64,000 nt of DNA from Cyanidioschyzon merolae (Eukaryota). The DNA is taken from the NCBI GenBank assembly GCA_000091205.1, contig AP006502.2; one strand, written 5' to 3'. The notes below the pieces were generated by a model, which had not been told where the DNA came from, searched no databases, and saw only the letters and a program-made list of their open reading frames with translations. Below are positions 1 to 49,345 of this stretch, piece after piece. The first letter of the stretch is position 1. Each line of letters starts with the position of its first letter. The translations under genes were made by a program, and so were the position numbers.

Positions 1-2352
1 AAGTGTTTTTCGCAGTATAGAACGGAAGCGTTCAAAGAGCGTTCAAGAAATAAAAATAAAAAACTAAAAAAAGAAAAGTTATGAAAAAGCAAGTCCACGA
101 TCCTGGAGGCGCATTGGCGCCGGCTGCCAGAAAAAAAAAACAAAAAAACCGTACGGAATCCAGAAGAAAAGGAAGAGAGGAAGGACCGAAAGTGGGAGGC
201 CCTACGTTGAAGGCGGCAAGAAAGACAACTGTACGACGAGATGGTGGTGAAAGCCATTCATCTTGGACATATCAAGGATCCCTACAGGGGAAAGCTGCGA
301 GACGCTATCAAAAAGCGTGTCGACTCGTACTCCAAGAGTATTGTCAATGCGTCGTCGGGACTGATGTATTTGGCGAGGAAGATGTACGAAGACGTGAAGC
401 ACATGGAAACGGTCGAGATTCCAGACAAGTTTTTCGACAAGACGTTTATTCGTCACCTGATGCTTGGCACAGAGAAAGCGCGGATGGAAAATGAGCGGTT
501 GCATGTTCTCCACGAAAAACATCCCTTTTACAGCTTCAAGGGTACTCGAAACAAGGGTGACTGGGGTGTTTACGACTGCGGGTCGATGAAGTACATCACG
601 AATCTGAAGAACCATTTGACAACGAACCTCGAACGTTGCATGATACGCGCCGTATTTGCACTGTTCCCTGGCATCTCTCGCAGGAGGATATGGGCGATTG
701 TCAACGGCATCACGAATGATCGCAGGCATGAAGGTGAGGTCGAATTCGTCGACAGGAAGGCGTCAAAAGAGAGCACGAATGAAGCTTCTGTAATCCGTGC
801 GGTTATACAAGAGCACCGTGCAATCTTGGGGTTGGCAAATCCAACAGACAACATATCAGAGCTGAACAAAAGATAAGGAAAGATACTATCGCCTCGTCCG
901 GCGGTATATCGTGCTTCTGGACCGAGAGCTCGAACGCAAGGCAGAGATGAAGCTGAGCGAAGAGACAAATGACGAGTGGGAGAGATGGAAGGCGTTCCTA
1001 ATGGGTAAGCGCCTCAGCGTCGTTCCAATGTGCAACATCAAGTCACATTTTGCGAAAGTCGACCCCAACGCACATTACAGCAAAATGAAGGAGATCTGTC
1101 CGGAGGTCGATGTAAAGAAGACAGAGTTCACCGGTGAAAACCGGGAGACGTGCTGGAAGAATATCTTCGATTTCAAACGCCTCAAAGTCAGCAAACAAAA
1201 GGTATTTACTGGGTTGATCGAAACCGATGGAGTAGCCTTGTGTGTACACTATCGGCGGTTGAAGAGAGATCGTCCAGTTCCGCCCTCGGCTTCGCCCGTG
1301 ACGAAGGATGGAGATGAGAAGAAGGCGGATCCTGTGATGCAGGAGGTGTAGGATAACGCCTTTATGGTTGGCGCGGCGAAGCATGAAGAAAACAAGAAGG
1401 CGGGCCCTGAGACACAGAAAGTGCAGGATAACGATCTTGTCGTTGGCGCGGGCCCCGGGAATACGAATATCATAATTATCGCAGCACCGAAGCGTGCGGA
1501 AGATGGTACTGACAGCAACTTGCGTCAGAAAGACATGCGTCTTTTGAGGTTCTCGAGAGCGATATACTATCGAGAATCGGGTATAACGAATGCAAGGAAG
1601 AAAATTGGGACGTGGAATGCAGGAATGAAGGATCGCCTGGAAGCTTTGAGCGAGGTGACGAGCCGCGGAGCGGACTTTACAGCTTTTCGGAAATTCGTGG
1701 AAGATCGTGTTGCCCATTGAGATGCGCTGTGGGAGGAGTATACCAAGCCCGGTGGGCTCGTCTGCGATTGAATCTATACAGTGGGAGGCAGCGGGCGTTT
1801 GCCAATTTTTTCAATCAGCTGAGCGCCCTCAAGGAGGATGAAAATCAGAGGCTCGTAGTAGCGTACGGAGCAGGGCGATGGAAGACCCAAAAAGGGACTA
1901 CGCCAGCTCCAACGACAAGAACGTACAAGGAGTGTGCACGGCGTTTCGTTACGATACCAGTAGATGAGTTCCGAACATCGTATACACACCAAGAGTTGGG
2001 GTGTACACTTCAGAGAGTCGAGATGGAAAAGTGTCAGCGGAGCCCTGAGGAAATAGCAAAGTACGCACCGCTAACAGAAGAGCGAATGGAAAGAAGAGCG
2101 AAAGTTCGTGGACTACTTGCATTAGTGAGTACAACTCCCAACGGCATGAAACGCATGGAGTTTGTGAACCGTGACTTAAATGCCGCTATCAGTATAAGGA
2201 AATGTGCGGTGCTGGAGAACTGAACTCCAGAGTTGACACGAGAGAAAACTTTATTGGACAACCTCTCAAAGTGGAACTATATGAGAAACAGTTGGAAGCA
2301 GTAGTGGGTGGCCGGTCCAAGAAAACTGAGAGGCGTCTGCACGTCAGTTCAA
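1..2352 (+). mobile_element. TnpB/Fanzor-like transposon-associated element, copy 1. The left side runs off the window edge. The right end is inferred where homology to copy 2 stops, just after ...GTCTGCACGTCAGT.
   Basis: Homologous along its whole length to 24311..26553 at nucleotide and protein level. About 240 bp upstream of the first ATG are conserved in both copies. Confidence 0.6.
241..2223 (+). pseudogene. Fanzor/TnpB-like RuvC nuclease gene, decayed. Segments: ORF1 241..876, middle region 911..1351, RuvC region 1364..1720 and 1612..2223. Disrupted by an in-frame TGA and a 1-nt deletion at ~1715-1745, and by a premature stop plus frameshift at ~2219 before the conserved C-terminal tail.
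   Basis: Paralogous to the intact 309-aa ORF of copy 2. The RuvC-I-like motif here reads [16 protein letters not shown] where copy 2 has VVDADPGN. The C-terminal NRDLNAAISIRK matches the D-x-NAA-x-NI RuvC-III signature of TnpB/OrfB_IS605. A Cys/His cluster sits between them. A putative 36-nt GT..AG intron lies at 1346..1381. Confidence 0.6.
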
Positions 2353-2441
2353 GACGCTATGTCTAGGGCGCGGTTGCCGCCACTACTGTACACCGCTGGC
2401 GACAACGTTTTTCTTTCGAAAGGCGTTTGTTGTTGGCGGTG

Positions 2442-3773
2442 ATGGCGACTCTCACCCGAGCGTCTGTCCGCGTGCCCGTAGCGCAACAGGCGGAAGTTCT
2501 CAGAGCCAGCGAAAAAGATAAGCAAGTACGGAATGAGCTCGCACGGGCGCTGCAAAATATATGGCAAGGCGGCAGTATAGTCCTGGGCCGTTTCCTTCAC
2601 ATCCAGCGATTAAACCAACGCTGGTCGCGTGCACAGCGGGCCCCAAGTCGTGTGCCGTTGTCAACCGGGCAAGCGCAAGGAACGTCACGTTCTAGCACAC
2701 TGGGGAGTCTCCAGCAGCCGTGGGAGCCGCTTGGAGCACCACCGACAGCGTTTCGCTTTCTGAGTGACCTCGTCTTCTACTGGAGCACAGTGGGAATCGG
2801 TCGCCAAACACCCGGAGAAGAGTTTTGTGACCTTTTCGAGTGCACCATAGCTACCGGTGATCGCATCCAAGTGGCAACCCTATCTTGGAAACAGCGACTA
2901 TTGGAAACATTGCTCTATGCCACCATCGACTCTTTTCAGCTGCTTCTGTACTGGCTCCGGGTAGCACTGCGTCGAGTCGCCCGGTTCTTGGAGCGTGACT
3001 GGTACTCGCAATGTCTCTTGAGTCGCGAGAGACGCTGCCGAGTAGCCAGTACCTTACGTTTCGTAGACACTTGCTGCGCACGTCTGCAATTGCTACAAAG
3101 CTCCGATCGCCATGCACTGGCACTCACGATACAGTGGCTCATGCGTGTGCATCTTGCACTGTTCTATTTGTATGGGCGCTACTATGACCCAGCGAAGAGG
3201 CTTGCTGGTGTGCGTCTCGTGCATATTGGGCGGTCAAGGGCGTATTCACCTCGATATGATGCTCTAGGTCTTTTGCTCATCGTGCAGCTCGTCCTCGAAC
3301 CCATTGATGTGTTGATGCAGCGTCCAGCATGGAAGCGAAAGCTCCGCGTGCTTTTCAAATGGGCACTTGAGCTGTTTCGCAAAATGTATGCCAGTGTATC
3401 CACCTCGAAGCGAATCGCAGGTGATGGCGTCTCGCAGGCTCGGCCTCAGATGGTGACCGCTGTGCACACCACAGATCGATTCTCGGGCGAAGAAACCGGG
3501 CTTCCTGGCTCCAGAACGACAGATCAACAGCGGTCATGGTCTGTGGTATCGCCCAAATTCGAGCCTGTACCCACTGCAAGGCGAGCGCGAAACGAGTCGC
3601 GACACCGCTGCGTGCTCTGCTTGGATCAGTGCCAGGACCCCACATGTACTGCCTGTGGACACGTCTTCTGTTGGATCTGCATCCTGGACTGGGTGCGTCA
3701 GCAAAACTCTTGTCCAGTTTGTCGTCGAGAGGCACAGTTGAATGACTTACGTTGCCTCTACAGCCTCGGATGA
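2442..3773 (+). CDS. PEX10: Peroxisome biogenesis factor 10 (RING-type E3 peroxin). The ORF is open from 2427 (TTG); the first ATG is at 2442.
   Basis: The C-terminal C3HC4 RING CVLCLDQCQDPTCTACGHVFCWICILDWVRQQNSCPVCR closely resembles the PEX10 RING [25 protein letters not shown]...CPLCR. The N-terminal part is consistent with a Pex2/Pex12-type domain. Confidence 0.75.
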   Translation: MATLTRASVRVPVAQQAEVLRASEKDKQVRNELARALQNIWQGGSIVLGRFLHIQRLNQRWSRAQRAPSRVPLSTGQAQGTSRSSTLGSLQQPWEPLGAPPTAFRFLSDLVFYWSTVGIGRQTPGEEFCDLFECTIATGDRIQVATLSWKQRLLETLLYATIDSFQLLLYWLRVALRRVARFLERDWYSQCLLSRERRCRVASTLRFVDTCCARLQLLQSSDRHALALTIQWLMRVHLALFYLYGRYYDPAKRLAGVRLVHIGRSRAYSPRYDALGLLLIVQLVLEPIDVLMQRPAWKRKLRVLFKWALELFRKMYASVSTSKRIAGDGVSQARPQMVTAVHTTDRFSGEETGLPGSRTTDQQRSWSVVSPKFEPVPTARRARNESRHRCVLCLDQCQDPTCTACGHVFCWICILDWVRQQNSCPVCRREAQLNDLRCLYSLG

Positions 3774-4419
3774 ATTCATTGTATGCCTAAGCGTTCCGTG
3801 CTCGTCGGATCGCTGAAAACGCCCTAATATGACAGTGTCTAACCTGACGGTGATTGCACCCATGCCAGAATTGAGTGGAACAGGTCTTCCAATGTGGACG
3901 TAAACACGTACGAGAGGATCGATTCCAGTTGTCACCAACGCAAGCCATTGCAGGCGTTTTCTGCGACTGCTTCCTTTCTCTCTCTTGTATCGGGTATCAA
4001 GTACGTCGGTCTCCCACTGTCCCTCGAGCTACGTTGCCAGAAGTCGAAGGATGCTGGTAGCAAAATTAAATGAAGTCCCGATTACGCAGTTTCCGGTCGT
4101 TGTTGGCGCAATTCATGTACATGCGGGAGCTTCGATCTAAGCGCCGCATATTATTTTCATCTTCTTTGCGTGCTACCTCGGAACGCGCTTCGCCTGGATT
4201 TCGTCGGGTGTAACTAAGCGTGGACCACAGCGCTCCTCTAGGACTCGCCAAGTCAAGCGCAAAAGTGTACCTGATTGTTCAGCGCATTCTCTTGACGGGC
4301 ACAGAAGGCTGGCCTCGATGCCCGCTATGTTTCCGCGTCTGATGCCGTTCCGGAGATTGCAGGCTTCTGCAGAACAATTGCCGCAGCACGTACTCTGTCC
4401 GCTGTAGGTGCAAGCGCAC

Positions 4420-4620
4420 ACTCTTCCATTCAGCTGAGGTTTTGTGGAAGTCCATCGTATGCATGATGGGGCAAGTCGATCCATTCCGATCCTTTTATGC
4501 TCTTTCCAAAGCGATGACGCACGCTCCAGTGAACGCGATCATTGCGATGACTGAGGCCGAGTCTGGTTCGCTTTTCAATGAAACTAGTATCGTCGAAATT
4601 CTCTAAAGGCATACCCCGTG
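4420..4620 (-). repeat. Dispersed repeat family R, degenerate copy in inverted orientation.
   Basis: The plus strand at ~4490-4580 aligns to the reverse complement of 12070-12160 (...gatgacgcacgctccagtgaacgcgatcattgcgatgactgag...). It encodes a short peptide MTHAPVNAIIAMTE, matching the THAPLEAI-AMT motif of the other copies. Confidence 0.5.
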
Positions 4621-7188
4621 GAATGCATTACTCTGCTGCTCTCGGATGCCATTTGGTTGGCGATCTTATCGAAAACAGGTTTTCTTTGAACGACATCGAT
4701 TATTTGACTTGACGAATTCACGAAATGATCGGCATGAATTTGTGAGCAAGTCGTCGTGAGACAGCACCGAGATTTTTCCATTCCCGCCAAGGAAGCAGCG
4801 CGAATTGCGGCGTCTATGGGTCGCCCTGAAACAGGTAAATCAAAAAGATGAAGATTGCGTGATATGAACGTGCAACGTACAGGGAAAGGAAAGGAATAGA
4901 CTCTTGAACGCGAGAGTTGCATAATAATAACGGTCATGTCATGAAATCTGGTTCGAGAGCGAAGCGAATTAACTAGTGTCTGCTAAAGTAACAAATTCAA
5001 GCTGCGAGCAGTCGAAAAAGTCGCTCCGAAAGGACGCCGGAGAATCCTACAACCATCCATGAATCCGTATGCCCCAGTTGCGGCAGTCGGAATGACGAGA
5101 GTGTGTATCAGAAATGTTCGGAGAATACGTCGAATGGCAGAAACAGGGCGAGCACTTCAGTGTAACAATCTAACCCGACACGCTTACAGATGACGCGACG
5201 ACAATGGCCAAACTTGGTCTGATGCGCGCTTTCGTATTCATGGATATTCTACTCGAACCCTCTTTGCAATCCTTTTCCACCTCATGCGCGTCGGTACGCC
5301 GGCAAGCGTCCAGGCTGTGGAACGCATGCTCCCATTTTAGGTTCAAGCAGCATGCTTTGGGATGAAAACGCCCCCGTGAATCCATGATGAGCAGTAGAAT
5401 AGAAAACTGAATAAAGGGAATGGCTTTGGCTGCAGACCGAACGTCCGCTTGAAGAAACCCACATGGAATTGGTATACAGGCCCACGAAACGGAATTTTAT
5501 AGTGCAAAATCAAATATTCGAATCAGACTTCTCCCACGGCGTCGCTGCAGCAGTCTGTAATCAGGGACGAAACCACGGCAACTCCCCAGATCCGTCTGAG
5601 CTTCGACATCCCCACAAGAGGCTTGCCTTCCGAGACGGAATTTCGATCTATCCAGCATCGTCATATGCGCCGCCGCCGCTATGGCCGCTATCGCCTGCAG
5701 AGACATGATGGCGTTGTGGTGCTGTGAACTGCTTCAGCACGGAAAAACTGAATGGAATCATCCGGAAGCGAAAACAAGTTGCTACGTTCGTGCCGAGAGC
5801 GCCACTTGCAGTTTGAATACAGGCAACGCTTCTGATGATGTTTTGCTTGCGGCAACATGTGCCATAACCCCGGTACCACTGCAACGTGGGAGAAATGCTT
5901 CAAACTTGGACCCTTTCGAGACACGATCTCCGAACCCGTTTCGCCAGTTGAAAGTGGCTGTGCATCTTTTGGGCTCGAAGAAACATAGAGAGTCAAGAAG
6001 CTGCACTCTCCGTCGGCAAAGAGACGAACAAGACATGCATACGAGATCATAGACGTTGCATAGTCTGCAACATTGCTGCCTTCGTTGGGCCCAAGAGGCG
6101 AATCGCTGTATGGTCCGACACCGCAGTTGCCATTCGTTCAACGTTCTCTGCTAATGTTCTGGACGCTGCTCATTCGCTGTCTCTTTTAACCTGAGGCTCA
6201 CTCTAGAATAGGAACTGTACACGTGAGTTTCGAATACGAGGGGTATCCATCCGCAATCGCTCCCAAGGTTCTACAAGACAACTGGCAAGAAGAACCTAAT
6301 ACGTAACGTTCTTCCGGACAGCGTTCTTGCTCGGTGCAGTCAACGCCCGCTGTGCTACTATACTCTGTGACACGCAACGAATAAATAAATAGGCCTGAAA
6401 AGGCGATTTCTATTCTGGTGTCGTATGCAAGAACACGAGGCTCGTCTCGCAGCTGAGTATACCTCAGTGAACGATAGTCTCGCTGACGTCGATTCCAAGG
6501 ACAGCTTCACAACGGAGACGCCGTCTAGGTGCACAGGAAAAGCTTGTCCAGTGAGCCCATGGTGACAAGCTCCCCAGTTCGTCGTGGAATCAGTGACCAG
6601 CTGCGCTATGAAATAACCAGTCAGCAGCAAAGAGCCAAAGCGGTTACAAGTCCAGAGCCGAGTGCTCGAAATTGCTTGACAGGGTGCTCTCTCGTGCCTC
6701 TGCCTTCAAACGGCTCCTGCAGTCACTTAAAGTTAAGGAAGCAGACTGAGTGAGCTCCAAAAGCCGTGCGTGAGGCTCAGGGAACCGAAAGTACCCCATC
6801 AACCGAGACGCACCTCGTGCGCTACAGGCACCGGCTGTAGGAAAAGAAAACTTCGTTGAGCAACGTGCCTGCGCTAGGCAGTCAAGCGAGCAGGGAACTT
6901 TGCCGTCTCCACCTCTACCGCAGCCGCCGTACAGCAGCTTGCTCTATATGAACGCTACAAGATAGCTAGCGCGGAGTACCCATGCGCCAAGGTTGCCGCA
7001 GTGCCCCTCAAGGTCACCACCGGACTGCTCCGAGATGCCGGAGCAGCACGGGATTTCTTGCAGGCGCGCAGCGTACACGTTATCGCGTTGCTACCACTCC
7101 AGGGAAGGCTGTTTCAGGGCGGACTTGTAGACGGACCAGCACAGCTTTGAACTTGACAATCCCGTGAAGCAAAGGTGCGTTTGCGCCG

Positions 7189-7854: not shown

Positions 7855-10800
7855 GGAGACAATCGCACGCTGCAATATCTACAAGTAAGTCAGAAAGGCT
7901 GATGGATTTCAAATTTTTACTTTCCTGCACGAAGACTATATGAAAAACGTGCTCACCACTGCCGAGGAATGTCTTGAGAGAAGCTGTTTCGCGAAGCGCG
8001 CAGTAGGTGCTCGAAACGGGCTGTTGATGTCTTGTAGATGAAACCGGCAGCACATGGATCCGTTTTTGCAGGTCTCCGGAGAGTATCTGTGCAGTGCCAG
8101 TGCGCTAGTGCATCGTGCACACGGATACTCGTCGCTGTGTGATATATTCAGACTTGTGTGCTTCCACGAATCGCATCCTACTTATGTGTGCTCCGATTCT
8201 GTTCTCTGCCCGAGCTTGCACGATCGCACGTGCAAGCACTTGGCAGGGACACGTTTACAGCGAGTACACAAACTTGGTCTCGTTTGTGCGGAAGCGATCT
8301 CGGTAACTTCTGAGCGCGGCGCTCGAGTGCATAGAGGTCTGTTGCGCCGAGCAAGTGCTGCAGTCTCGAGGACAGCGCCCCCGGACTAGCACGGTCGTTC
8401 AAATAGCTGGTGTGTCGGCGAGTGTTGGTAGAGGACAGGTGACGCTTGCATGCCATGTTCGCCGCATTACACTTGGGAACTTGAAACGACGACACAGGTA
8501 CGTTGTTCTGCGGTCACGATCCCGATACGCTGATATAGGCCTGCTGGTTTTCCAAGTCTTTTTCAAAAGCATGTGCTCTAGAGCACGCTCCTTACCAGTA
8601 ACCGAACGGGAATCCCGGGGAGAGCCGCAAACGTTTCTGTTTTCTTCACTGTAAAGTCATGACCTCGTTATAATCAGAGCGTTAAATTTTGGAACATCTG
8701 TACCAGCACATTTTCTTGATTCGAATCGTTTCTCTTACAAGTATTCAACAGAAAGAATGTTTCATGTATGTTGGGGAAATGTGGCGGTAAGACCCGATGC
8801 TCGCACCGTCAGCTTGCGAGGAAATGGTCTCATGTGTTCAACTCACTCATTCTGGGGTCAGCAGGTAGATGAACTACCCTATTTGTTGTCACCACACAGA
8901 ACGTCTTGCGCTGAATAGCTAATTTCCCAAACCCTGTTTGTAAGGCAGTATCCTCGCCAATTCATTTTACTCTGGATGCTCTCCGAGAAATCGTGTTGAA
9001 AAAGCTACTGAATGTGAACATGGCATATTGTTGAGACGAACTCTGATAAAGAGACACGAATGGGCGAAGAAAGTATGCAAGCATCTCTGCAACTCCTTCG
9101 TGCAATGAAAAATACTCCACTGATATCGCACTGAAACACGAACGTGTAGTATATGAAGGACTCGTGCTCGTATCATTCTATCAGAACATATTTGGTACAA
9201 ATACTAGTCCTGGATACGGACGCCCAAAGAGGGGCAAAGCGCTATTCATAAAAAGATGAGATGAAGGACCCCATCCAGAACAGCACAGCTTCCTACTCGA
9301 TGGCGCCTCGCCCAGCTTTCCTCGCTTTGGTGTATCTCGTGAGGAACTATTCCTTGGGGTTCCAGGCGCAGGGCCCCCCGTCGTCCATATTTTTCAGTAA
9401 TCCTTCCATCAAACCTTTCGACGACAACACTGCCTATGTTCGGGACGAAATGTGCAATACGACCTTGTCGTAGAATCATTGATTTGCAGAAACACGTCCC
9501 AACATATCTCGACCTGTCGCCGCGCCACATCGTTGATCGGAATTTCCACTGCGCTCGTACCAGAAAGCCTCAAAACAACCACAAAGATTAGAAGCATATG
9601 CGGCCAATGACGAACGCTTCATGGGGTGCACTCTCTGGGTATTCTACCCATCGTAATCTCGCATTGGTGTTCCCGAAAACTGGGGACGTATGTAATGTAC
9701 TCATGGGCCAATTGATGAAGGCAAAAGACGAGCTGGAGCCGGAAGAAATCAAAGCGGTAGCGAGCTCCGAAGTGATGTCGCAAGAAGAGCGAGAATCACA
9801 TCAGATCGTCCAAGCAGCACGCGTTAATCTCGGCCTCGGACGGGCAGACGTCGCATCCAAAGGACAGTCGAACTGCCACAGATACCCAGCTTGCATCTTG
9901 CGCTATTACGTTTTCCTGAACAGAGCTTACCAGAGAGCAATGCAGACTCCCACCCCGAATCCGAATGCCTTAGCCTCCGAAAGCGTCTGTTCGTTGTCAT
10001 TCCCGTATGTCAGATAAAGGTCTATTCCGTCACCGTTTACAGTCGTGCACTGAACTGTATGGCCTTCTCAGAAAGCGACGGCCCGTCTCTGCGTAGAAGC
10101 ATGAAGGATTCGACCAATTGCGCGATGAGCAGCAGCAGAACACCTTCAAAGAATCTCATAGTTACAGAGGAAGTTGAAAGCTGTTCACACGTAAAATGGA
10201 TCGATGAAAAGTCAGTCTGTATGTAATTGATGAAAGCTTGGCCTGAATTGAGCGACGAGTTTCATTTTCAAACATTCAAGGTAGATGAAGAGGTGAAATC
10301 CGTTTCGGATATGGATCACGGATTGAAGGGCATCATGGCCGTCGCCATACCTTCAAGTCAAATGGATGGAGATACAGGGCAGAACTGAAAGCAGATGAAT
10401 TAACAAGACTGTTCCATTGCTCAGCGTCATAGAGATTTGGGGTTGATGGACACAAAGAGACGTACCAACATTTAGAATCAGGGCGTCCGGACCGTCCTCG
10501 ACGAATTGAGCACTGTCTAGAGCAGCAAAATGCGCCGCACGCTGCATTTAGAGCGCACATGATTTTCCAAATGGTCTAAGCGAATGAGCTTTGGCAGGAG
10601 TACTTGCGACCACGTCTGTGTAGCCAGCATTTTGGGTTGTATGGAGATATCACGTGTTCCTGAACATGTTCAATGATTTAGAGAATGATGTGACCCATAC
10701 GCGCCGTCTTTCGGTAGTAGGCTCAGGCTCTGAATGTACAGACGCGTGCGGCAGCCGTACGCCTTCTCCTTCGACGACAGCATACAAAGAGTGCAAAAAT

Positions 10801-11989
10801 CGATTTTGTGCGATTCTAATCGATAATTCCAGTTGCGACTTTAGCGTACAGTGGGCACTCGTGCCCGCTGATACAAGCGGGGAAGTAGAGAATGAAACAG
10901 AGGCGAATACAAGAGATGATGCTCGGTACGCTGACCAGACGTCAAATGGCGAGGGAATCGAAGGCAAGAGACAGGGTGTGATGTGATCTCACCAGCAACC
11001 GAGCGGAAAAGCACTCTCTGTAGCCGCATTTTAGCAGCTCGATCAATGTCCGGAAATACCTCGTGCTTCTTGAGCATCTAGCGGCGCTGCGTCTAGCAAA
11101 GTTTCAAGGGAGTCTTTTCGCACTCTATTCGGCATTGTGCTAAAACGTTGAAGTGCTCGAAGTGAACTATCAGTTCCCAAGCGAGATCGCATTCGAATCC
11201 CGCCCGAAGCAGGGTCCTGATACATGGCGGTTCAATAATCCAGAACGGCTGGGGCGCCTTTTACGTACACCGGGCACAATTTTTACGTGCTGTTGGCATA
11301 CGACTATGATGTTCCACGACTTGAAATTACTGAGTATATTCTTAATCGCTCGTAAAAGCACATGGTTCGTTAACGAAGGTGAGCCCCTTCCCCAGGGCTC
11401 GCCCGTGCAGGACAAACACGCGCGAGCGAACGCCACGCTCTACTCAGTTCAAAATGGAGTACTGAACTGCTCGCTCTTTTCCTGCAATTGGATCTTTTCC
11501 AGAACTATTTTCTGAATGAGCAGCCCCAAAATTCGAAGTACAGCAATGAGCGCCTACGGATTTACAGCTAGTTCAAGGAAGCTCCGTCGTTGGTTCCTAC
11601 TGGTTCCTTTGAAGCTCTGCCACTGGAATTCGGTGCTTCAACGAAAGTAAGATGATCGATTCGCCACTACCTCGAGCACGAGCTCCCAATACAATCGACA
11701 TTAGCATTCAATTCACACGCTCTAGCCTAGACTACTGCACTTTCCTTGCACATCCCATGCTCAAATCTACGATTCTTCTTGAATCTTCGACCATTCTGTG
11801 CCAAAGCAGCTCGTGGGCACTGCGCTTGGCACCGCTGGATTGAATACCAAAAAATCAAGTACTTTCATTGGGGACTTCTTCACAGGCGCATTCCGAAACT
11901 GCACTGAATATGCGACGCCAAATAATCGATTCCACTTAAAGGACAAATCCATCGCTGTTTGTGAGCATTCAGAGAACCGCATTCGACAG

Positions 11990-12350
11990 CAGCATGGCAT
12001 CAAGTACGGATTGTATGCTCCCTGAGGCCCCCATCTCTCCTGTTTGAATGGAAAAGTGTCTTCGACTCCGACTTGAGTCATCGGAGCGATCGCTTCCAGT
12101 GGAGCATGCGTCACGGCTTTGCATATAGGCGTATACACAGACAGAGAATTCTCGAGTTGTTTTGCAGCCTGGATTTTCCTTCCGGTGTATTCTTCATCAA
12201 GGACAAGACGGTACTCCGCAAATCATCTAGTAACTTGAATAGGATGCGCTTGCGTGTGCAGCAGGCAGCGTACCCGCCGAAAGGATCGCGCTGCTGTTGC
12301 CCGTGATCGTTGGTAACCGCAACAGGCGCGGAATCGGAGGCCAGCATCGA
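11990..12350 (-). repeat. Dispersed repeat family R copy. Minus-strand ORFs 12111..12347 and 11767..12138 carry the conserved THAPLEAIAPMTQV and GK-x-LQ segments.
   Basis: About 300 nt align at roughly 65-75% identity with 30040..30350 and with the 46830..47050 / 49550..49770 segments. Contains a GCGATCGC palindrome. Confidence 0.55.
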
Positions 12351-12971: not shown

Positions 12972-12984
12972 ACAGAATCGAACA

Positions 12985-13071: not shown

Positions 13072-13807
13072 CGTTTGTTGCTGGCGCCTGCGATCCACCT
13101 GCATCAGCACATCGCGACCGCCGAACTGTAGCAATTATTTGCGATATTCTATATATAAATGGTTGCGCTACGAGCGATGGCGATTGCGCGCGATTTTTTG
13201 CGACACATGTGTATATTAAGGACAGATTCATGGGTGATGCTTACGGTATTTCACCTCAACGGGGTTCCACTCGCAGATGCGTGGAATCAAGAGTGGTTTC
13301 GTGCTTAACAGCAACCACGTTCGAAGCGCGTTCATTAGAAGAAATAGAAAACCCAAGGGAAAGAATCGTCATCGAAGCGGCGGATCGAAGAGGGTCGGTG
13401 TCGTCGGGGTTTGACAAGGAAACGAAATAATCCTCTCCTCGCCGACCATCGAGCAAGGGAGAGCTACTGACGAAGAAAAAGAATAGTGGGGATTGGCGAG
13501 CAAAACTTGTTCGCCGTAGAGGACGATGATGAGACTAGAGTGGCACAGAGGGCAAGTGTTTGAGAAATCCCTGGACTGATGCATTGTACCAGAGGCATTA
13601 AAGTCAAGGAGTTCATGAACAGTTACTTGAACGCCGAACGCAATATTACACGATGTAAGATGCTGAAGACGAGAACCGTGGAGCTGACGCGAGCATTTTT
13701 GGGGCGCAACCTCTCAGGCTCGAAGTGTACAAAGAGAAACTGAAAACGATTGCAGGACGCTGGTCGAAAAAGGCTGGCAGCCGTCTGCGGGCGGATATCA
13801 ATTTACC

Positions 13808-20660: not shown

Positions 20661-21119
20661 TCAGAATACTATAGAACACTGGGCTGCTCGCTCTGTTCCT
20701 GCCTTGCGATATGTTTCCAAACCTTTTCGATATACAGTCTCGACATTCACATTGTGGTAAGCGCGGATGACGGATTCATGTGCAATGCTAGGATTCATGG
20801 TCATGTTTTCGAAGTGGCTGATTCGGCGCTTTGCAGCTGGGATTCGTTCTGTAACCAGAATCGTGATGAGCCGCAAACCCATCGAACACGAGTTCCTAAA
20901 ATAACCGATATCGTTCGCCAATACATATGTTTGTGCATCCATGCTCCTGCTCTCCGCATATATAGCATGCTCGGATACAGCATTCTTCAACTGTTCGATC
21001 TTTCCGTTCCGTGGTAACTTTTGGGAAGCAGGTAGCAGTGCGCAACATTGTGTAGAGGTGAAAGTATACTCGACTTGGTCGCTGGACGACATCCGCACAA
21101 GCGTATCTGGAAAGTTCAT
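20661..21119 (-). CDS. Hypothetical protein (152 aa, ATG start), no recognisable domain.
   Basis: ORF only. Confidence 0.2.
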   Translation of the reverse strand: MNFPDTLVRMSSSDQVEYTFTSTQCCALLPASQKLPRNGKIEQLKNAVSEHAIYAESRSMDAQTYVLANDIGYFRNSCSMGLRLITILVTERIPAAKRRISHFENMTMNPSIAHESVIRAYHNVNVETVYRKGLETYRKAGTERAAQCSIVF

Positions 21120-22146
21120 TCACTGACCTTGTCACGGCACATGAAAGACTCCTTTCGAAAGTCAAATATGCCTCTCTTCGGCGCCAGCGACGAACCGGCA
21201 TTCGGCAGAAGCATTGTACCGCTAGGGCACGATGCTCTTAAAGGATTTCGCCTTCCCCATTTCCATGAAACATGGTCTTGGACTCGGAGCCCAGTCGTCT
21301 CTCCCATCGCTGCTAGTGTAGAATGCGCCACTGTTTAGAAGAAGAGTGCGTTGATGGATGGAAGTTTCTTGACTTTTCATGCAGCATGGATATTCAGTGT
21401 GGTACTTGTGCCATCATGCACATCAACGTGTCCCGCAGATCCTCTATCGACTGGAAGAAAGTGCGCTTGTAAATGCAGCGGATAGCGTACTCGGGGCAGG
21501 TATCGCGCCGAAGAAGCCTGTGAGCTTCGGTATGGAACCGGGCACGGAAACGGTGCAGGACACCGAGGCGAGCCTTCTGTGCCCGTCATAGGCGTGCGCC
21601 GAATGATAAACCAAAAGCTCGCGTGCCACAGGGCGACTCTCTCAGAGAATAGGGTGCGATGGACCTAAATGAGTACCTGACTATATTCAAGTGTGATAGC
21701 TGCGAATAACGCACCGAGGCTGCATGCATAGGAGATGACAATGGAAAGCGATGCCTAGATATCAACTACTGTCTGTGCATCAAATGCAGCGACAAAAGCC
21801 GGAAGCAGCGAAATCAGGAACTGAACGCAGCCACCAACAACGTTCGAATCGTGACAACGGAGCTGAAGACAAGGGCAGACCGACGAACGTAAAGCCGGAG
21901 ATAAGACAAAGGAAAACGAAGCCGTCCCAGATAAAGCTCGCAAAGGCTGGTCGTCATGACATGAGGAAAAGACCCAAACTTTACGGTGTACGCTCGTGTT
22001 CGCAAAGTGGGCCCGCTCCATTTCATTCTGATAGGGGTGCAAGCGACCTCTGGTCCAGACCTGAGGCAGATGCGCGCGATTGCCAGACTGCGTCTCATGA
22101 ACGCAGCGTATTGACTGTGGACGTCAGCGCACGTCAAGCTCCGCTC

Positions 22147-23769
22147 TTAAGACGGAGAACGCTCCCAGCTCTGGCTGGGTATTCGGTCCGAACGCAGATA
22201 GAAGACGCTCGTCACGTACCGCTCGTGATACCTTCGCGTGAGGACGTACTTGTGCACATGGCGCACATTTGCGGATACCCCGCTGGGAACTATGTACAAA
22301 TGGTTCAGGGTCACTGTAACAGGTCTTGGAGGGAACAAATCAACCTCGCCCCGCTCTCGTCGCAACTGTTCTTCTATGAATTCGTTTGGAGTCATCTCAA
22401 TTGGCAAGCGAGGAGCCGTTTCCTCGCCAAGCAGGACAGGCAGCGGCGGTGGCTCACGATGAAAGCCCGACTCGATACCTGGAATTGCGTTATCATAGCT
22501 GCCAACAGGGCTCTGTTCCCGCCGGAAGACCTCGCTCGCGCGCTTCGTTCCAGGCAAGAAATCATCCTGTACCAGAAACTCGCCAAAGAAAGGTTCCACC
22601 CGAATGAAGTTGTTCACATTACCGTGGGCATCCCGAGCGACCATTTGCTCGGGCGCATACCGCCACTCGCCGTCTACAACATACTTGTACTGATAGTCAC
22701 CAGGTTCTAGATTAAGGAGAATGTAAAAGGCGTTCCCGCTCCGATGCAGTGGATGACGCCGCTTCCACCCGTCAAAGGAGCCCGCGACTTCCACACCCGC
22801 AACGGCGCCGTGGTGCCAGTTGAATGCCACTGGAACCAGGTTCCGCTGCGGGACTTCTAGGAGCTCCATTTCAGCCAGCTTGGTTTCGGTATCCTCGAGC
22901 TGTGGTGTGTGCACGACGCCGTGGTCCACAGAGCGCCTTGGTGGCACCTCGGCGCCTCCGTGCTCTCTCGAATCACTGCCTAACGCAGGAGGAAGTTGCA
23001 TGGCGCTCGGCAGAGGAGGCGGCCCCGAGGCAGACGCTTTCGCTTGGAGGGCGTTTTCACTCATTCCAGAGGTTTCTGGCACAGCCCAGCCCGGAGCGGC
23101 TCTTGGTACCCCACCACTAAAGTAGGACTCCATGCCCAGGCTTGCGGGACTGTGCGGGCTGAGCCTCGGGCTTATTGCCGCAGGCGCGGCGCCTACGGAG
23201 GCCGCAGCAGCGAGTGCCGCAGCACTCCGCTCCGACAGCGCTGCTGAGCCCCGTGTGAGGACTCGCGAGGCCGCGGCGGGTGCCCCTGGACCACCCTCTC
23301 GAGAGAACGAGTGTCCCATAACGCCAGCAACGGCAACTCCAACGTTGCCAAAACCGTTGTTGCTGCGGGACGCACCCGTGCCTCCAAGGAACAACGTTGT
23401 CAGTCGCGCGCGATTGGCGTCTTGGTAGGAACGTTCAAAGGAGTCGGATGCCGGCAGGTGATTCCCTTTTCGATGACAAAACGTTTCCATGAACCATGGA
23501 TCCCAGTTTGCGGAATGGGTATTCGTAATCGAAAAAAAAGGTTCATCATGCGGCAACAACCTGCATGTTCCATGAACCAGATATCCTCTCGGATACACTG
23601 GTCGTTTCGTGCGCTCTATCGTGTGCCAGTTGTCTGCCTGGCTGCACTCGCAATAGCAGTCATACCGCTGGAGCAGATGCAGCACGGAGACAGAACCGCT
23701 TTTCCATACCACTGAGGGCTTCGACTCGATGCTTGGTTCATCCGAGACCGGGTCGGAGTACATAATCAT
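22147..23769 (-). CDS. AMPK/SNF1 kinase beta subunit (CBM48 glycogen-binding domain plus ASC domain). The ORF is open from 23784 (TTG); the first ATG is at 23769.
   Basis: VPVAFNWHHGAVAGVEVAGSFDGWKRRHPLHRSGNAFYILLNLEPGDYQYKYVVDGEWRYAPEQ matches the AMPK-beta GBD. C-terminal ...TLNHLYIVPSGVSANVRHVHKYVLTRRYHERYVTSVFY matches the ASC domain. A long Ala/Pro-rich linker separates them. Confidence 0.8.
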   Translation of the reverse strand: MIMYSDPVSDEPSIESKPSVVWKSGSVSVLHLLQRYDCYCECSQADNWHTIERTKRPVYPRGYLVHGTCRLLPHDEPFFSITNTHSANWDPWFMETFCHRKGNHLPASDSFERSYQDANRARLTTLFLGGTGASRSNNGFGNVGVAVAGVMGHSFSREGGPGAPAAASRVLTRGSAALSERSAAALAAAASVGAAPAAISPRLSPHSPASLGMESYFSGGVPRAAPGWAVPETSGMSENALQAKASASGPPPLPSAMQLPPALGSDSREHGGAEVPPRRSVDHGVVHTPQLEDTETKLAEMELLEVPQRNLVPVAFNWHHGAVAGVEVAGSFDGWKRRHPLHRSGNAFYILLNLEPGDYQYKYVVDGEWRYAPEQMVARDAHGNVNNFIRVEPFFGEFLVQDDFLPGTKRASEVFRREQSPVGSYDNAIPGIESGFHREPPPLPVLLGEETAPRLPIEMTPNEFIEEQLRRERGEVDLFPPRPVTVTLNHLYIVPSGVSANVRHVHKYVLTRRYHERYVTSVFYLRSDRIPSQSWERSPS

Positions 23770-24310
23770 TCTGGGGGTCAGCAAGCTGCTCAGAGAGGCT
23801 TACTTTCTGCGACTGCGCGAATCGACATGCAAGGAGACCACTGCGACCAGGGCGATGCCCAGACCCAGCATACCCAATTCGTGTCCCAGAATAGATTGCG
23901 TTGCGGACGGCTGCCCTGATCTCACGAAAGGACCCACCACTGGGAGGCGCATGAAGCACGAGTCTGGCGGACTTGTCCGGCTCGCGGGACCTTCCGCCTA
24001 AAGGATGAATTTTCGACAATATGGAAACCGCTCTCCCCTTTTAACGTGTTTCGCAGAGAAGGAAAGAAATTTTTATCCAGTTGCAAGGTTAGAGGTTAGT
24101 CTCTGTCCATGTTTGTGTATAGCGCGGTTGATACGCGCACCTTGAGATCCAGCAGGCGTGAGATCCGACGTGCATCTCGCCCTTGAAGGGAAACGCGATC
24201 CTAATCAATAGCACGTTGGTATGACGTACAGGTTGTATTTGCATTGCATGTATCTCATTTTATAGTCTTTCAATTCAATGCTTTTTCAACCATCACGTTG
24301 GTATATTCAT

Positions 24311-26553
24311 GTGATTTCTCGCGGTTTCTAACTGAAGCGTTCAAAGTGCTCTCGTGCTAAAAAATAAAAAAAGAAATTCATGGAAATAGAAGTGGAGGAC
24401 CCTTGAGGCCTTATGTCGTCGGCTGCCGGAAAAAACGGAAAAGAGTCCCGAGCCACGTGGAGCATGGGAAGATGTAGAAGCAAAAGAATGAGGTCCGACG
24501 CCAAAGGCTGCGAGAAAGACGAAATTACGACGAGATGTCGGTGAAAGCCTGTCTCCCTAAACATATCAAGGATCCGTACAAGGAAAAGTTGCGAGAGGCC
24601 ATCAGAAACCGTGTCGCGTCGTACTTGACCAATGCTCGTCACGCATCTTTAGGATTGATGTATATGGCGAAGGAGATGTATCGCGACGTGATGGAAATCA
24701 AAATATTCGAGCTTCCGGACGAATGTTCCGACAAGACCTTTATTCGTCATCTGATGCTTGGCACAGAGGAAACGTCGAGAAGAAACGAGCGAGTGCATGC
24801 CCTCCACGAAAAATATCCCTTCTACATCTTCCACGGTACTCGATACAGGATAAGAGTGATATTTACGAAATCGGGGCGAAGAAATACCTCACGAACCTGA
24901 AGAACCATTTGACAATGAACCTCGAACGTTTCATGATACGTGCCGTGCTTGCATTCTACCCGGGCATGTCTCGGCAATGAATATGAGCGATTATCAATGG
25001 CATAACGAACAATCGCAAGCATGAACAGGAGATCGAATTCGTCGACAAGAAGACACCATGCAGGAAAAGGTGTAAAACTTCTGTAATCCGTGCGGCGATT
25101 CAAGAGCGCCGTCCGGTACTGGGGCTGCTCAACCCATCAGAAAAAGTAGCAGATATGGGAAAAACATTATTCTCTCATCCTGCGCTATTTCGTGTTTTTG
25201 GACCGAGAACTCGAACGCAAGGCCGAGATGAAGCTCCGTGTGGGAAAAAACGAAGAGTCGGAGAAACGGAAGGCTGCGCTTCTGAGGAAGCGCTCCAACG
25301 CCGTTGCGCAATGCGGCGTCAAGTCACACATTTTGACAATCGACTCCAGAGCCCTTTTCCGCATCACGAAGGAGATAAGTCCGGAGTTCGATATAAGCAG
25401 GGACGAATTTATGGATGAAAACCGAGTAACTCGTTGGAAGAATATCTTCGATTTCAAACTCCTCAGAACGAGCGCGCAAAAAGTATTCACGGGAACGATC
25501 GAAAGCGATGGGGTATCCACGTGTGTTCACTACGGGCACCTGAAAGTGTATGATCCTTTTCCATCTTCCATATGACCCTCGGCGAAGCATGAAGAGAAGA
25601 AGGAGGCAGATCTTGCGAGGCAGAAAGTGCAGAAGAACGACTTTGTGGTTGACGCGGACCCCGGAAACACGAACATCATAACCATCGCAGTACCCAAGCG
25701 TGCGGAAGATGACATTCACGGTAGCTTACGTCGGAAAAACATGCGTCTTTTGAGGTTCTCGACAGCAAGATACTATCGAGAATCCGGTATGATGAATGCG
25801 AGGAAGAAAATCGAGACATGGAATGCAGGAGTGAAGGATCACCTGGAAGCTATGCGCAAGGTGACGAGCTGCGGAGCAGACTTTCGAGCTTTTCGGGAGT
25901 TCATGGAAACTCGTGCTGCCCATAACGAGAAGCTTTCGAACGAATATGCCAGGCCCCGGTGGGCTCGTCTGCGAATGAACCTGCTCTGTGGGAAGCAGCG
26001 TGCATTCGCCAAATTCTTGAATCAGTTGAGCCCCCTCAAAGAAAACAAGATCCAAAGGCTCGTAAAGGCATATAGAGCACGACGCGAGGCGTCAGGAGAA
26101 GGCAGCACACCAGCGCCATCGACGAGAACGTACAAGGAATGCGCACACCGTTTTGTCACAATACCGATAGACGAGTTCCGAGCGTCATACGTCCACCATG
26201 ATCTGGGGTGCACAATCCAGAGAGTCGAGATGGAAAGGTGCCAGCGAATTCGTGAGGATATCAAAAACTTCGGAGCGCTGACGGAACAACAAATGGAAAG
26301 GAGGGCACAAGTTCGGGGATTTCTTGCAGTGGTGAGTTCCATCTCGGGCAAAAAACGCATGGAGTTCGTGCACCAAAACATAAACGCCGCTTTCAATATC
26401 AGGAGATGTGCAGTGATGGAGAAGAGATCTCCGCATCTGGCGCGAGCCAACTTTATGGGGCAGCCTCTCAGGGTTAAAGTGTACGAGGAGAAGTTGAAGC
26501 CAGTAACAGGCGGCCGGTCCAAAAAGCCTGGGAGGCGTCTCCACGTCAGTGTA
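24311..26553 (+). mobile_element. TnpB/Fanzor-like transposon-associated element, copy 2. Both ends are inferred from where homology to copy 1 stops.
   Basis: Collinear with 1..2352. The conserved upstream block ...gaagcgttcaaag... begins near 24311. The conserved 3' block ...GGCGGCCGGTCCAAAAAGCCTGGGAGGCGTCTCCACGTCAGT ends at ~26553. Confidence 0.65.

Positions 26554-49303: not shown

Positions 49304-49345
<42 letters not shown>

What the first reader, a model, noticed from the sequence alone, without database searches (positions are those of the whole stretch)
1400..26440. Different inactivating lesions in the two Fanzor-like copies, including substitutions at putative RuvC catalytic positions
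Copy 1 reads LVVGAGPGN where copy 2 has VVDADPGN, so the RuvC-I Asp position is Gly. Copy 1 also has a TGA plus a 1-nt deletion at ~1715-1745, and a premature stop with frameshift before the conserved C-terminal tail. Copy 2 keeps the RuvC-I Asp but reads HQNINAAFNI where copy 1 has NRDLNAAISI, so the RuvC-III Asp position is Asn. Its N-terminal region has a 1-nt deletion and two TGA codons (cgg caa tga ata tga versus cgc agg agg ata tgg). Neither copy looks catalytically competent. They may be relics. Alternatively copy 2's intact RuvC-half ORF might retain a nuclease-dead, RNA-guided binding role.
Basis: partly seen in the sequence, partly recalled or inferred. Interest (0 to 1): 0.7.

Follow-up and report, generated by a model that had tools for sequence, protein, structure and literature searches.

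The report
Two decayed CMe-1A Fanzor1 transposon copies

Summary

**What the copies are.** Both belong to CMe-1A, the Fanzor1 family of Cyanidioschyzon merolae (Bao & Jurka 2013).
- Copy 1 is window 1-2425, which matches consensus 834-3169 at 86.6% identity. The window edge cuts it.
- Copy 2 is window 23471-26550, which matches consensus 1-3092 at 80.7%. It lacks the last 77 nt.

**Catalytic positions.** A profile of 73 intact relatives hits solved Fanzor1 structures (PpFz1 E=3.7e-20, SpuFz1 E=7e-13). That alignment places the DPG Asp, the DEF Glu and the NRD Asp on SpuFz1 D383, E541 and D606. The substituted residues, D431G in copy 1 and D672N in copy 2, are therefore true catalytic positions. 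D-to-N at the third position is tolerated in Fanzor1: GtFz1 carries N there naturally, and SpuFz1 D606N is more active than wild type.

**What kills the copies.** Copy 1 has 4 frameshifts and 4 stops. Copy 2 has 3 frameshifts, 5 stops and a truncated 3' end.

**Errors excluded.** Most lesions are shared by 7 to 12 independent assemblies of the same loci. Three stops are still polymorphic.

**Copy 2's 309-aa ORF.** It shows 13 nonsynonymous to 4 synonymous polymorphisms, at noncoding-like density. That is neutral evolution, so a retained role is not supported.

The parts
1..2425 (+). Copy 1 of CMe-1A, matching consensus positions 834-3169. The window edge cuts it. In assemblies of the same locus it starts at consensus 648, about 186 bp upstream of window position 1.
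   Evidence: blastn of the published consensus against the window gives 86.6% identity. The upstream extent comes from L017 and L018.
81..2366 (+). Copy 1 Fanzor1 (CMe-1) coding remnant, a pseudogene. Frameshifts: +4 at 138-141, +1 at about 867, -1 at about 1747, +2 at about 2245. Stops: TGA 208, TAG 1349, TGA 1718, TGA 2221.
   Evidence: Frameshift-aware protein-to-DNA alignment and consensus DNA alignment. TGA1718 and TGA2221 are polymorphic among 7 assemblies; the other lesions are fixed.
1300..1374 (+). Extra 75-nt (25-aa) copy of the KHEEKKEA..QEVQDNDFVVGA repeat unit just upstream of RuvC-I. It carries TAG at 1349.
   Evidence: Insertion relative to the consensus. The unit number varies from 1 to 6 among family copies.
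1451..1453 (+). RuvC-I catalytic codon, GAC>GGC (D431G), equivalent to SpuFz1 D383.
   Evidence: Fixed in 7 of 7 assemblies.
1966..1968 (+). Copy 1 relocated RuvC-II glutamate (E603, equivalent to SpuFz1 E541), retained.
2173..2175 (+). Copy 1 RuvC-III aspartate (D672, equivalent to SpuFz1 D606), retained.
2298..2425 (+). Structured 3' end of the element, overlapping the ORF tail. It is a candidate omega-RNA scaffold, with the stem CAGTAGTGGGTGGC / GCCGCCACTACTG. Retained in copy 1.
   Evidence: RNAalifold on 6 copies. The consensus folds at -55.8 kcal/mol with z -3.3. Copy 1 folds at -49.4 with z -2.2. This is inferred only; there are no expression data.
23471..26550 (+). Copy 2 of CMe-1A, matching consensus 1-3092. 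It lacks the last 77 nt of the element.
   Evidence: 80.7% identity. The 3' alignment shows homology stops at 26550.
23471..24110 (+). 5' module of copy 2 of about 635 bp, corresponding to the separate element TE-N2_CMe. It is absent from copy 1.
   Evidence: Consensus alignment. Bao & Jurka 2013 text. Copy 1 starts at consensus 648.
24380..26556 (+). Copy 2 Fanzor1 coding remnant, a pseudogene. Frameshifts: -1 at about 24429, -1 at about 24847, -11 at about 25157. Stops: TGA 24404, TAG 24475, TGA 24978, TGA 24984, TGA 25573. In-frame -3 at about 26337.
   Evidence: Shared by 11-12 assemblies, except TAG24475 (9 of 11) and a homopolymer indel at about 25159.
25627..26556 (+). Open 309-aa RuvC-half ORF of copy 2. 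It is evolving neutrally.
   Evidence: Polymorphism is 13 nonsynonymous to 4 synonymous at 18.3 sites per kb. Allele alignment.
25657..25659 (+). Copy 2 RuvC-I aspartate (D431), retained.
26173..26175 (+). Copy 2 relocated RuvC-II glutamate (E603), retained.
26377..26379 (+). RuvC-III catalytic codon, GAC>AAC (D672N), equivalent to SpuFz1 D606. The preceding Arg is also changed to Gln.
   Evidence: Fixed in 12 of 12 assemblies.
9252..10845 (+). N-terminal and middle part of a much more diverged Fanzor1-like relic, riddled with stops.
   Evidence: tblastn with the CMe-1 protein and the family consensus.
13531..13793 (+). C-terminal (RuvC-III and tail) fragment of the diverged relic.
45440..46053 (+). 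Internally deleted CMe-1-like relic. It keeps ..VSRDFNAVINIR*.. and the tail.
38323..38454 (-). Fragment of the CMe-1A / TE-N2_CMe 5' module (consensus 31-166).
47923..48030 (-). Fragment of the CMe-1A / TE-N2_CMe 5' module (consensus 84-189).

Best explanation
The window carries two old insertions of CMe-1A, the Fanzor1-encoding transposable element of Cyanidioschyzon merolae, or of a very close relative of that alga. An intact CMe-1 protein is a 734-aa TnpB-like RNA-guided nuclease. Its RuvC triad is D431 / E603 / D672, with the relocated glutamate typical of Fanzors. It is presumably guided by an RNA transcribed from the structured 3' end of the element; that step is inferred. Both copies here lost function long ago and have since collected substitutions, small indels and stop codons at the neutral rate. 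Copy 1 is 13% and copy 2 is 19% diverged from the family consensus. The hits on catalytic residues (D431G in copy 1, D672N in copy 2) are part of that random decay. They are neither the cause of inactivation nor a sign of a new nuclease-dead function. Copy 2's 309-codon open frame is a chance survivor.
For: **Family identity**
- The published CMe-1A consensus (PMC3627910, Additional file 2) aligns to 1-2425 at 86.6% and to 23471-26550 at 80.7%.
- The CMe-1 protein aligns over the whole remnant in both copies.
- The paper describes about 150 copies, each about 80% identical to the consensus, without TIRs. No TIR was found here either.

**Fanzor1 membership**
- A profile of 73 intact relatives hits PpFz1 (9cf0, E=3.7e-20) and SpuFz1 (8gkh, E=7e-13).
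- An AlphaFold2 model of the intact relative P0123 has pLDDT 89.6. Its seven best PDB matches are all Fanzor1 structures, the top one SpuFz 9ceu at E=1.8e-17, with TM 0.54-0.64 by query length across the seven (0.63/0.72 query/target for 9ceu).

**Catalytic mapping**
- The HMM alignment puts the DPG-D, DEF-E and NRD-D on chain residues 777, 935 and 1000. With the MBP-fusion offset of 394 these are D383, E541 and D606. The papers name these as the triad.
- The triad is invariant in all 73 intact relatives: D 73/73, E 73/73, D 71/71.

**Pseudogene state**
- Four frameshifts and four stops in copy 1; three frameshifts and five stops in copy 2.

**Real, not artefact**
- The lesions recur in 7 assemblies of the copy 1 locus and 11-12 of the copy 2 locus, at about 99% identity.
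- TGA1718, TGA2221 and TAG24475 are still polymorphic, so decay is ongoing.

**Neutrality**
- ORF309 has 13 nonsynonymous to 4 synonymous segregating sites at 18.3 per kb. AMPK-beta has 9.7 per kb and SURF6 5.9 per kb. The dead N-terminal part has 23.3 per kb.
- The mutation spectrum is ordinary: ts/tv about 1.4, with CpG context enriched.
Against: - Copy 2's C-terminal 930 nt have no stop or frameshift, while the upstream 1250 nt have eight. With a uniform lesion rate that has a probability of roughly 0.003. This calculation is post hoc.
- All 12 sampled alleles keep the frame open.
- In both copies the RuvC half has a lower nonsynonymous-to-synonymous ratio against the consensus (about 1.0-1.6) than the N-terminal half (about 2.2-2.6). 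This is expected if part of the divergence arose while the lineages were still active. The broken C-terminal half of copy 1 shows it too.
- The organism is inferred from the element and from base composition. It was not given.
Confidence: 0.94

Rival explanations
1. Copy 2's 309-aa ORF is an exapted, truncated Fanzor: a RuvC-only protein kept by the host for a nuclease-dead or N-type-triad function.
For: - The ORF is open in all 12 alleles, while the upstream half is riddled with lesions.
- D and E are retained, and N at the third position is compatible with catalysis in Fanzor1.
- The insertion is fixed in the sampled population.
Against: - Polymorphism is 13 nonsynonymous to 4 synonymous, at a density like noncoding DNA and 2-3 times that of neighbouring genes.
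- Variable sites include D>E right next to the catalytic Glu.
- The conserved G570 of AYGAGRW is Arg, and the Arg before the third catalytic residue is Gln.
- The ORF lacks the WED/REC half that binds the guide RNA and DNA in solved Fanzor1 structures.
- The ORF as listed starts at a GTG; the first in-frame ATG lies at codon 39 (MRLLRF), which is where one assembly's gene call starts.
- The 3' 77 nt and the predicted RNA stem are lost; z = 0.27 against -3.3 for the consensus.
Confidence: 0.03
2. The stops and frameshifts are sequencing or assembly errors, or lie in spliceosomal introns, and one or both genes are in fact intact.
For: - Two of the indels sit in homopolymer runs (poly-A at 133-150 and at about 25159), and those runs are length-polymorphic.
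- Fanzor genes in other eukaryotes do contain introns (PMC10530073).
Against: - The same lesions appear in 7 to 12 independently assembled metagenome contigs.
- Stops replace conserved codons. For example, W520 TGG>TGA lies inside continuous colinear homology.
- The indels are 1-11 nt relative to the consensus. No intron-sized GT..AG insert is present.
Confidence: 0.01
3. The copies were inactivated by a directed genome-defence process such as RIP-like hypermutation, not by neutral drift.
For: The element regions have lower GC (0.48-0.49) than the window average of about 0.55.
Against: - Against a 7-copy consensus, ts/tv is only about 1.3-1.6.
- C>T and G>A changes in CpA/TpG context are few (4 plus 4 in copy 1, 5 plus 8 in copy 2). 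CpG context dominates.
- The consensus itself is comparatively AT-rich, so the low GC is a property of the family.
Confidence: 0.02

Closest known systems
CMe-1A / CMe-1 (Fanzor1 family of Cyanidioschyzon merolae; Bao & Jurka 2013, Mob DNA 4:12)
   Same: - Nucleotide identity to the published 3169-bp consensus is 81-87% over the full shared length.
- The 734-aa protein has the same architecture.
- There are no TIRs.
- Divergence of about 80% from the consensus is what the paper describes for the roughly 150 genomic copies.
- The 5' 635-bp module shared with TE-N2_CMe is present in copy 2.
   Different: Nothing of kind. These are two particular degenerate insertions. Copy 1 lacks the 5' module and has one extra 25-aa repeat unit. 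Copy 2 lacks the last 77 nt.
Spizellomyces punctatus Fanzor1 (SpuFz1; PDB 8gkh, 9ceu-9cez)
   Same: - Homologous by profile (E=7e-13) and by fold (TM 0.63/0.72).
- The same D / relocated-E / D RuvC triad (D383, E541, D606), with Gly at the canonical RuvC-II position.
   Different: - Only about 15% sequence identity.
- The CMe-1 clade has no CxxC...CxxC zinc-finger cysteines in the TNB region.
- SpuFz1 elements have 30-nt inverted repeats; CMe-1A has none.
- The copies here are pseudogenes.
Guillardia theta Fanzor1 (GtFz1; PDB 9cer)
   Same: Asn at the third catalytic position, as in copy 2 (N658 in GtFz1). The fold match has E=5e-16.
   Different: In GtFz1 the Asn is the native residue of an active enzyme. 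In copy 2 it is a one-off substitution in a dead copy of a family whose 71 scored intact relatives all carry Asp.
Prokaryotic TnpB (ISDra2; PDB 8h1j) and Cas12f
   Same: The RuvC core fold and the RNA-guided nuclease ancestry.
   Different: - Much weaker structural match (E about 3e-3, TM about 0.2-0.3).
- Canonical RuvC-II glutamate.
- Much smaller REC domain.
- Prokaryotic IS200/605 context with TnpA.

Membership tests
CMe-1A (Fanzor1 transposon of C. merolae) | Nucleotide similarity to the published family consensus along its length | tested here: met
   Copy 1 matches consensus 834-3169 at 86.6%. Copy 2 matches consensus 1-3092 at 80.7%.
CMe-1A (Fanzor1 transposon of C. merolae) | Encodes the CMe-1 Fanzor1 protein (734 aa, single exon) | tested here: met
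   tblastn and frameshift-aware alignment cover residues 4-734 in copy 1 and 9-729 in copy 2, as disrupted reading frames.
CMe-1A (Fanzor1 transposon of C. merolae) | No terminal inverted repeats | tested here: met
   No inverted match longer than 9 nt between the left and right ends in three full copies.
CMe-1A (Fanzor1 transposon of C. merolae) | Host is Cyanidioschyzon merolae | not testable with these tools
   The window's origin is not given. About 55% GC, long intron-free ORFs and several CMe-1A and TE-N2_CMe fragments are consistent with that host.
Fanzor1 | Sequence homology to experimentally characterised Fanzor1 proteins | tested here: met
   The family profile A3 hits PpFz1 at E=3.7e-20 and SpuFz1 at E=7e-13. 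Single sequences and the shallow profile gave nothing.
Fanzor1 | Full-length Fanzor1 fold (WED-REC-RuvC-TNB) | tested here: met
   Tested on the intact relative P0123 (42% identical to CMe-1). pLDDT is 89.6. The top seven PDB hits are SpuFz, PpFz and GtFz.
Fanzor1 | RuvC triad D / relocated E / D(N), with Gly or Pro at the canonical RuvC-II position | tested here: met
   Met for the family: D 73/73, E 73/73, D 71/71, G 98/100. In the window, copy 1 has G at the first position and copy 2 has N at the third.
Fanzor1 | Intact reading frame and a catalytically competent protein in these two copies | tested here: not met
   Copy 1 has 4 frameshifts and 4 stops. Copy 2 has 3 frameshifts and 5 stops. 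They are relics of the family, not working members.
Fanzor1 | Guide (omega) RNA encoded at the 3' end of the element | tested here: inconclusive
   The consensus 3' 131 nt fold at -55.8 kcal/mol with z -3.3. A conserved long-range stem is predicted, but only 2 compensatory pairs appear in 6 copies. There are no expression data. Rfam gives no match.
Fanzor1 | Zinc-finger (CxxC...CxxC) in the TNB domain, as in SpuFz1 and PpFz1 | tested here: not met
   The consensus of CMe-1 and of 73-100 intact relatives has no paired CxxC motifs between DEFRT and NRD. SpuFz1 and PpFz1 show them in the same alignment. This is a clade difference, not a lesion.
Prokaryotic TnpB (IS200/IS605) | Canonical RuvC-II Glu, adjacent TnpA, prokaryotic host | tested here: not met
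   Gly sits at the canonical position. No TnpA is present. The flanking genes are eukaryotic: AMPK-beta, SURF6 and Pex2/12. The TnpB fold match reaches only E=3e-3.

The most novel reading that the evidence does not exclude
Copy 2's 309-codon RuvC-half ORF (25627-26556) is open in all 12 sampled alleles. It keeps the Asp and Glu and carries an Asn that Fanzor1 enzymes tolerate. On this reading it is expressed as a truncated, host-retained Fanzor fragment and is not a chance-surviving frame.
Probability: 0.03. Interest if true: 0.5.

Novelty: already known. Interest (0 to 1): 0.1.

Why it matters
It matters little for biology. It documents two more degenerate insertions of a transposon family catalogued in 2013.

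Three points are useful.
- The window's "Fanzor-like" sequences can now be annotated precisely as CMe-1A copies and fragments.
- An Asp-to-Asn change at RuvC-III should not be read as inactivating in Fanzor1.
- Stop codons still segregating in the population give a direct view of pseudogene decay in progress.

The intact relatives found here number 1332 representative clusters. Many are full-length and lack zinc-finger cysteines. They may interest people mining Fanzor1 diversity.

Tried and rejected
- **Pfam and PDB sequence searches** with the conceptual proteins and with a shallow profile of close copies gave nothing. Homology to Fanzor1 appeared only after a profile of diverse intact relatives was built.
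- **First AlphaFold2 run** on the shallow alignment failed, with pLDDT 38.7. The second, with 100 diverse sequences, succeeded.
- **Terminal inverted repeats** were searched between the element ends in three copies. None was found.
- **RIP-like hypermutation** was rejected from the mutation spectrum.
- **Introns** as an explanation of the frame changes were rejected. The indels are 1-11 nt inside continuous homology.
- **Sequencing error** was rejected using 7 to 12 independent assemblies.
- **Selection on ORF309** was rejected from the polymorphism counts.
- **The 271-aa allele (P0379)** looked like a truncation but is only a different start-codon call. Its DNA is identical in that stretch.
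- **Covariation support** for the 3' RNA structure had too few independent copies in hand. Only 5 distinct sequences were available.
- **Organism identity** could not be obtained from cluster names.
- **A fully intact CMe-1 ORF** was searched for in the protein collection. The best is P0380, 752 aa, with D/E/D intact but truncated at both ends.

Full report
**1. What is in the sequence**

A self-comparison of the window shows one pair of long direct repeats, 6-2348 against 24315-26550, at 71-76% identity.
- Copy 1 reads ..[20 protein letters not shown].. and ..FVNRDLNAAISIRKCAV..
- Copy 2 reads ..NDFVVDADPGNTNIITIAVP.. and ..FVHQNINAAFNIRRCAV..
- Copy 2 has 'cgg caa tga ata tga' at 24972-24986, where copy 1 has 'cgc agg agg ata tgg'.
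- Copy 1 has TGA at 1718 followed by a lost base, and TGA at 2221 followed by a frame change.

**2. What family it is**

Single sequences hit nothing in Pfam or in the PDB sequence set. A protein search with the RuvC half of copy 2 found 206 close relatives. All were fragmentary ORFs of 55-73% identity, mostly from JGI metagenomes. Their consensus is FVVGADPGNTN ... VVAYGAGRW ... IPVDEFRTSY ... FVNRDFNAAINIRRC.

A profile of these sequences, searched against 1.84 billion cluster representatives, found 1332 relatives. Many are intact proteins of 580-740 aa. A profile of 73 such full-length proteins then hit two solved Fanzor1 proteins: Parasitella PpFz1 (9cf0, E=3.7e-20) and Spizellomyces SpuFz1 (8gkh, E=7e-13).

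An AlphaFold2 model of the intact relative P0123, built with a 100-sequence alignment, reached pLDDT 89.6 and pTM 0.88. Its seven best PDB matches are all Fanzor1 structures. The top hit is SpuFz 9ceu, at E=1.8e-17 and TM 0.63/0.72, followed by PpFz and GtFz. Cas12 variants and TnpB follow far behind.

A literature search then gave the exact family. [quoted passage not shown] It has about 150 copies, each about 80% identical to the consensus. It has no TIRs. Its 5' 635 bp are shared with another element, TE-N2_CMe. Some copies are still intact.

I read the consensus DNA (3169 bp) and the CMe-1 protein (734 aa) from the paper's additional files and aligned them to the window.
- Copy 1 is window 1-2425, matching consensus 834-3169 at 86.6%.
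- Copy 2 is window 23471-26550, matching consensus 1-3092 at 80.7%.

Copy 1 is cut by the window edge. In metagenome contigs of the same locus it begins at consensus 648, so it lacks the TE-N2_CMe module. Copy 2 has that module but lacks the last 77 nt.

Further CMe-1A-related debris lies elsewhere in the window:
- 38323-38454 (minus strand)
- 45440-46053
- 47923-48030 (minus strand)
- a much older relic at 9252-10845 plus 13531-13793

**3. Are the substituted residues catalytic?**

Yes. In the HMM alignment, three family residues fall on chain residues 777, 935 and 1000 of the MBP fusion. These are the Asp of DPG, the Glu of DEF and the Asp of NRD. With an offset of 394 they are SpuFz1 D383, E541 and D606. 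The neighbouring N385 of 'DPN' also fits.

The structural papers name D383, E541 and D606 as the magnesium-coordinating catalytic residues (PMC10432273; PMC11423790). The Gly in VVAYGAGRW occupies the canonical RuvC-II position. This is the 'rearranged' site described for Fanzors, where mutating the RuvC-I Asp or the alternative Glu abolishes cleavage (PMC10530073).

Among 73 intact relatives the three residues are D 73/73, E 73/73 and D 71/71. In CMe-1 numbering, copy 1 carries D431G (GAC>GGC, 1451-1453). Copy 2 carries D672N (GAC>AAC, 26377-26379), together with R671Q and G570R.

One correction is needed. PMC11423790 shows that GtFz1 naturally has Asn at the third position. It also shows that SpuFz1 D606N cleaves better than wild type. 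D672N alone cannot be called inactivating.

**4. Full lesion catalogue**

This comes from a frameshift-aware alignment and a consensus DNA alignment.

| Lesion type | Copy 1 | Copy 2 |
|---|---|---|
| Frameshifts | +4 at 138-141; +C at about 867; -1 at about 1747; +AA at about 2245 | -1 at about 24429; -1 at about 24847; -11 at about 25157 |
| Stops | CAA>TGA 208; TAG 1349; W520* TGA 1718; R688* TGA 2221 | TGA 24404; TAG 24475; TGA 24978; TGA 24984; TGA 25573 |
| Catalytic substitution | D431G | D672N |
| Other | 75-nt extra repeat unit after 1299 (it carries the TAG at 1349) | in-frame -3 at about 26337; 3' truncation at 26550 |

Both copies are unambiguous pseudogenes.

**5. Not artefacts, and still decaying**

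The same two loci occur in JGI metagenome assemblies at about 99% identity. One 46-kb contig carries both copies at the same spacing.

All copy 1 lesions are present in 7 of 7 sequences, with three exceptions:
- TGA1718 is TGA in 4 and the ancestral TGG in 3.
- TGA2221 is TGA in 3 and AGA in 4.
- The poly-A run near 140 varies in length.

All copy 2 lesions are present in 11-12 sequences, with two exceptions. TAG24475 is TAG in 9 and AAG in 2. A homopolymer indel near 25159 also varies. One further protein allele reads Trp instead of the stop at 25573. Both catalytic substitutions are fixed.

The lesions are real.

**6. Is copy 2's open RuvC half under selection?**

Across 12 sequences the 930-nt ORF has 17 segregating sites, 13 nonsynonymous and 4 synonymous. 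This is close to the roughly 3:1 expected without constraint.

| Region | Segregating sites per kb |
|---|---|
| ORF309 (25627-26556) | 18.3 |
| Dead N-terminal part of copy 2 | 23.3 |
| Downstream intergenic DNA | 24.2 |
| AMPK-beta gene | 9.7 |
| SURF6 gene | 5.9 |

The ORF also lacks the WED/REC half of the protein. The copy has lost the 3' 77 nt of the element.

That 3' end forms a strong predicted structure in the consensus. A 13-14 bp long-range stem, CAGTAGTGGGTGGC / GCCGCCACTACTG, encloses a hairpin. The fold energy is -55.8 kcal/mol with z = -3.3. Copy 1 retains the structure, with z = -2.2. Copy 2 does not, with z = +0.27. By analogy with SpuFz1, this 3' region is the likely guide-RNA scaffold. 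That is an inference, not shown here.

The one point in favour of retention is that eight lesions fall in the upstream 1250 nt and none in the last 930 nt. I treat this as a post-hoc curiosity. Under neutral decay a long frame survives now and then. The family paper and my own search show other copies with long open stretches, for example P0380 at 752 aa and P0276 at 600 aa with RuvC-I deleted.

**7. Mechanism of decay**

Against a seven-copy consensus the substitutions show ts/tv of about 1.3-1.6, with CpG-context transitions enriched and few CpA/TpG-context changes. This is ordinary mutation, not RIP.

Nonsynonymous codon changes affect 14% of the C-terminal half in copy 1 and 28% in copy 2. 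One hit among three catalytic residues per copy is therefore expected, with probabilities of about 0.36 and 0.62.

**8. Verdict**

The finding is real and correctly read as relics. It concerns a transposon family already described in 2013. It needs two corrections: D-to-N at RuvC-III is not inactivating in Fanzor1, and the evidence does not support the proposed nuclease-dead role. Novelty: already known. Interest: low.

Noticed in passing
window 1300-1451, and alignment A1: Directly upstream of the RuvC-I Asp, CMe-1 copies carry a tandem 25/26-aa unit (KHEEKKEAGPATQEVQDNDFVVGA). It is present 1 to 6 times in different copies. Each unit repeats the first RuvC beta-strand up to, but not including, the catalytic DPG.
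   Followed up: partly
alignments A3 and A4, compared with SpuFz1 and PpFz1: The whole clade, including hundreds of intact and apparently live proteins, lacks the CxxC...CxxC zinc-finger cysteines that SpuFz1 and PpFz1 have between the DEF motif and NRD. It has a conserved VRGLLWC.ST motif there instead.
   Followed up: partly
window 2298-2425, and CMe-1A consensus 3039-3169: The conserved C-terminal tail of CMe-1 (..EAVVGGRSKKTGRRLHVSWRRFV) is encoded by sequence that also forms the 5' arm and inner hairpin of a strong predicted RNA structure ending at the element's right end. The tail may be conserved for the RNA and not for the protein.
   Followed up: partly
window 23471-24110, against L017:2459-2778: The 5' 635-bp module of the published CMe-1A consensus (TE-N2_CMe) is present in copy 2 and L003. 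It is absent from copy 1, L004 and L005, which begin near consensus 648-667. Next to copy 1 an inverted fragment of that module lies just upstream. The published consensus may be a composite of two elements.
   Followed up: partly
window 12984-13072 (minus strand): A tRNA-Pro(CGG) gene of 89 nt, long enough to suggest an intron. It lies between the two pieces of the old Fanzor1-like relic (9252-10845 and 13531-13793).
   Followed up: no
window 46206-47316 and 48913-50034: A 1.1-kb direct duplication at 97.9% identity flanks a 221-aa ORF (48177-48842). It contains a poly-Asp-coding tract of different length in the two copies. The region is also distantly similar to 12031-12532.
   Followed up: no
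window 3943-5163, against 20676-21948: Inverted similarity of 64-67% between the sequence downstream of copy 1 and the sequence upstream of copy 2, including a 46-nt inverted repeat at 4278-4323 / 21558-21603. A further match links 21771-21957 to 40235-40422. This is possibly another dispersed repeat family.
   Followed up: no
window 44995-45217, 49962-50107 and 56971-57132: Short tandem duplications with units of 81, 73 and 81 nt, at 91-98% identity.
   Followed up: no
window 22147-23784 (minus strand): The mechanical 545-aa ORF of the AMPK-beta homologue runs about 300 nt into the left end of copy 2. Other strains' gene calls give 447 aa, so the real start is probably near 23490. Copy 2 therefore sits immediately upstream of that gene, in divergent orientation.
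   Followed up: partly
L018:345-863 (outside the window, about 2.2 kb upstream of copy 1): An ORF with a reverse-transcriptase domain (RVT_1) lies upstream of copy 1 in one strain's contig. This suggests a retroelement remnant next to the Fanzor copy.
   Followed up: no
P0028 and P0276/P0280: Other paralogous copies show independent hits on the triad. P0028 reads NRN (third Asp to Asn again). The P0276 group has lost RuvC-I by an internal deletion and reads IDMF or IDKF in place of IDEF, yet keeps a 600-aa open frame in several strains.
   Followed up: no
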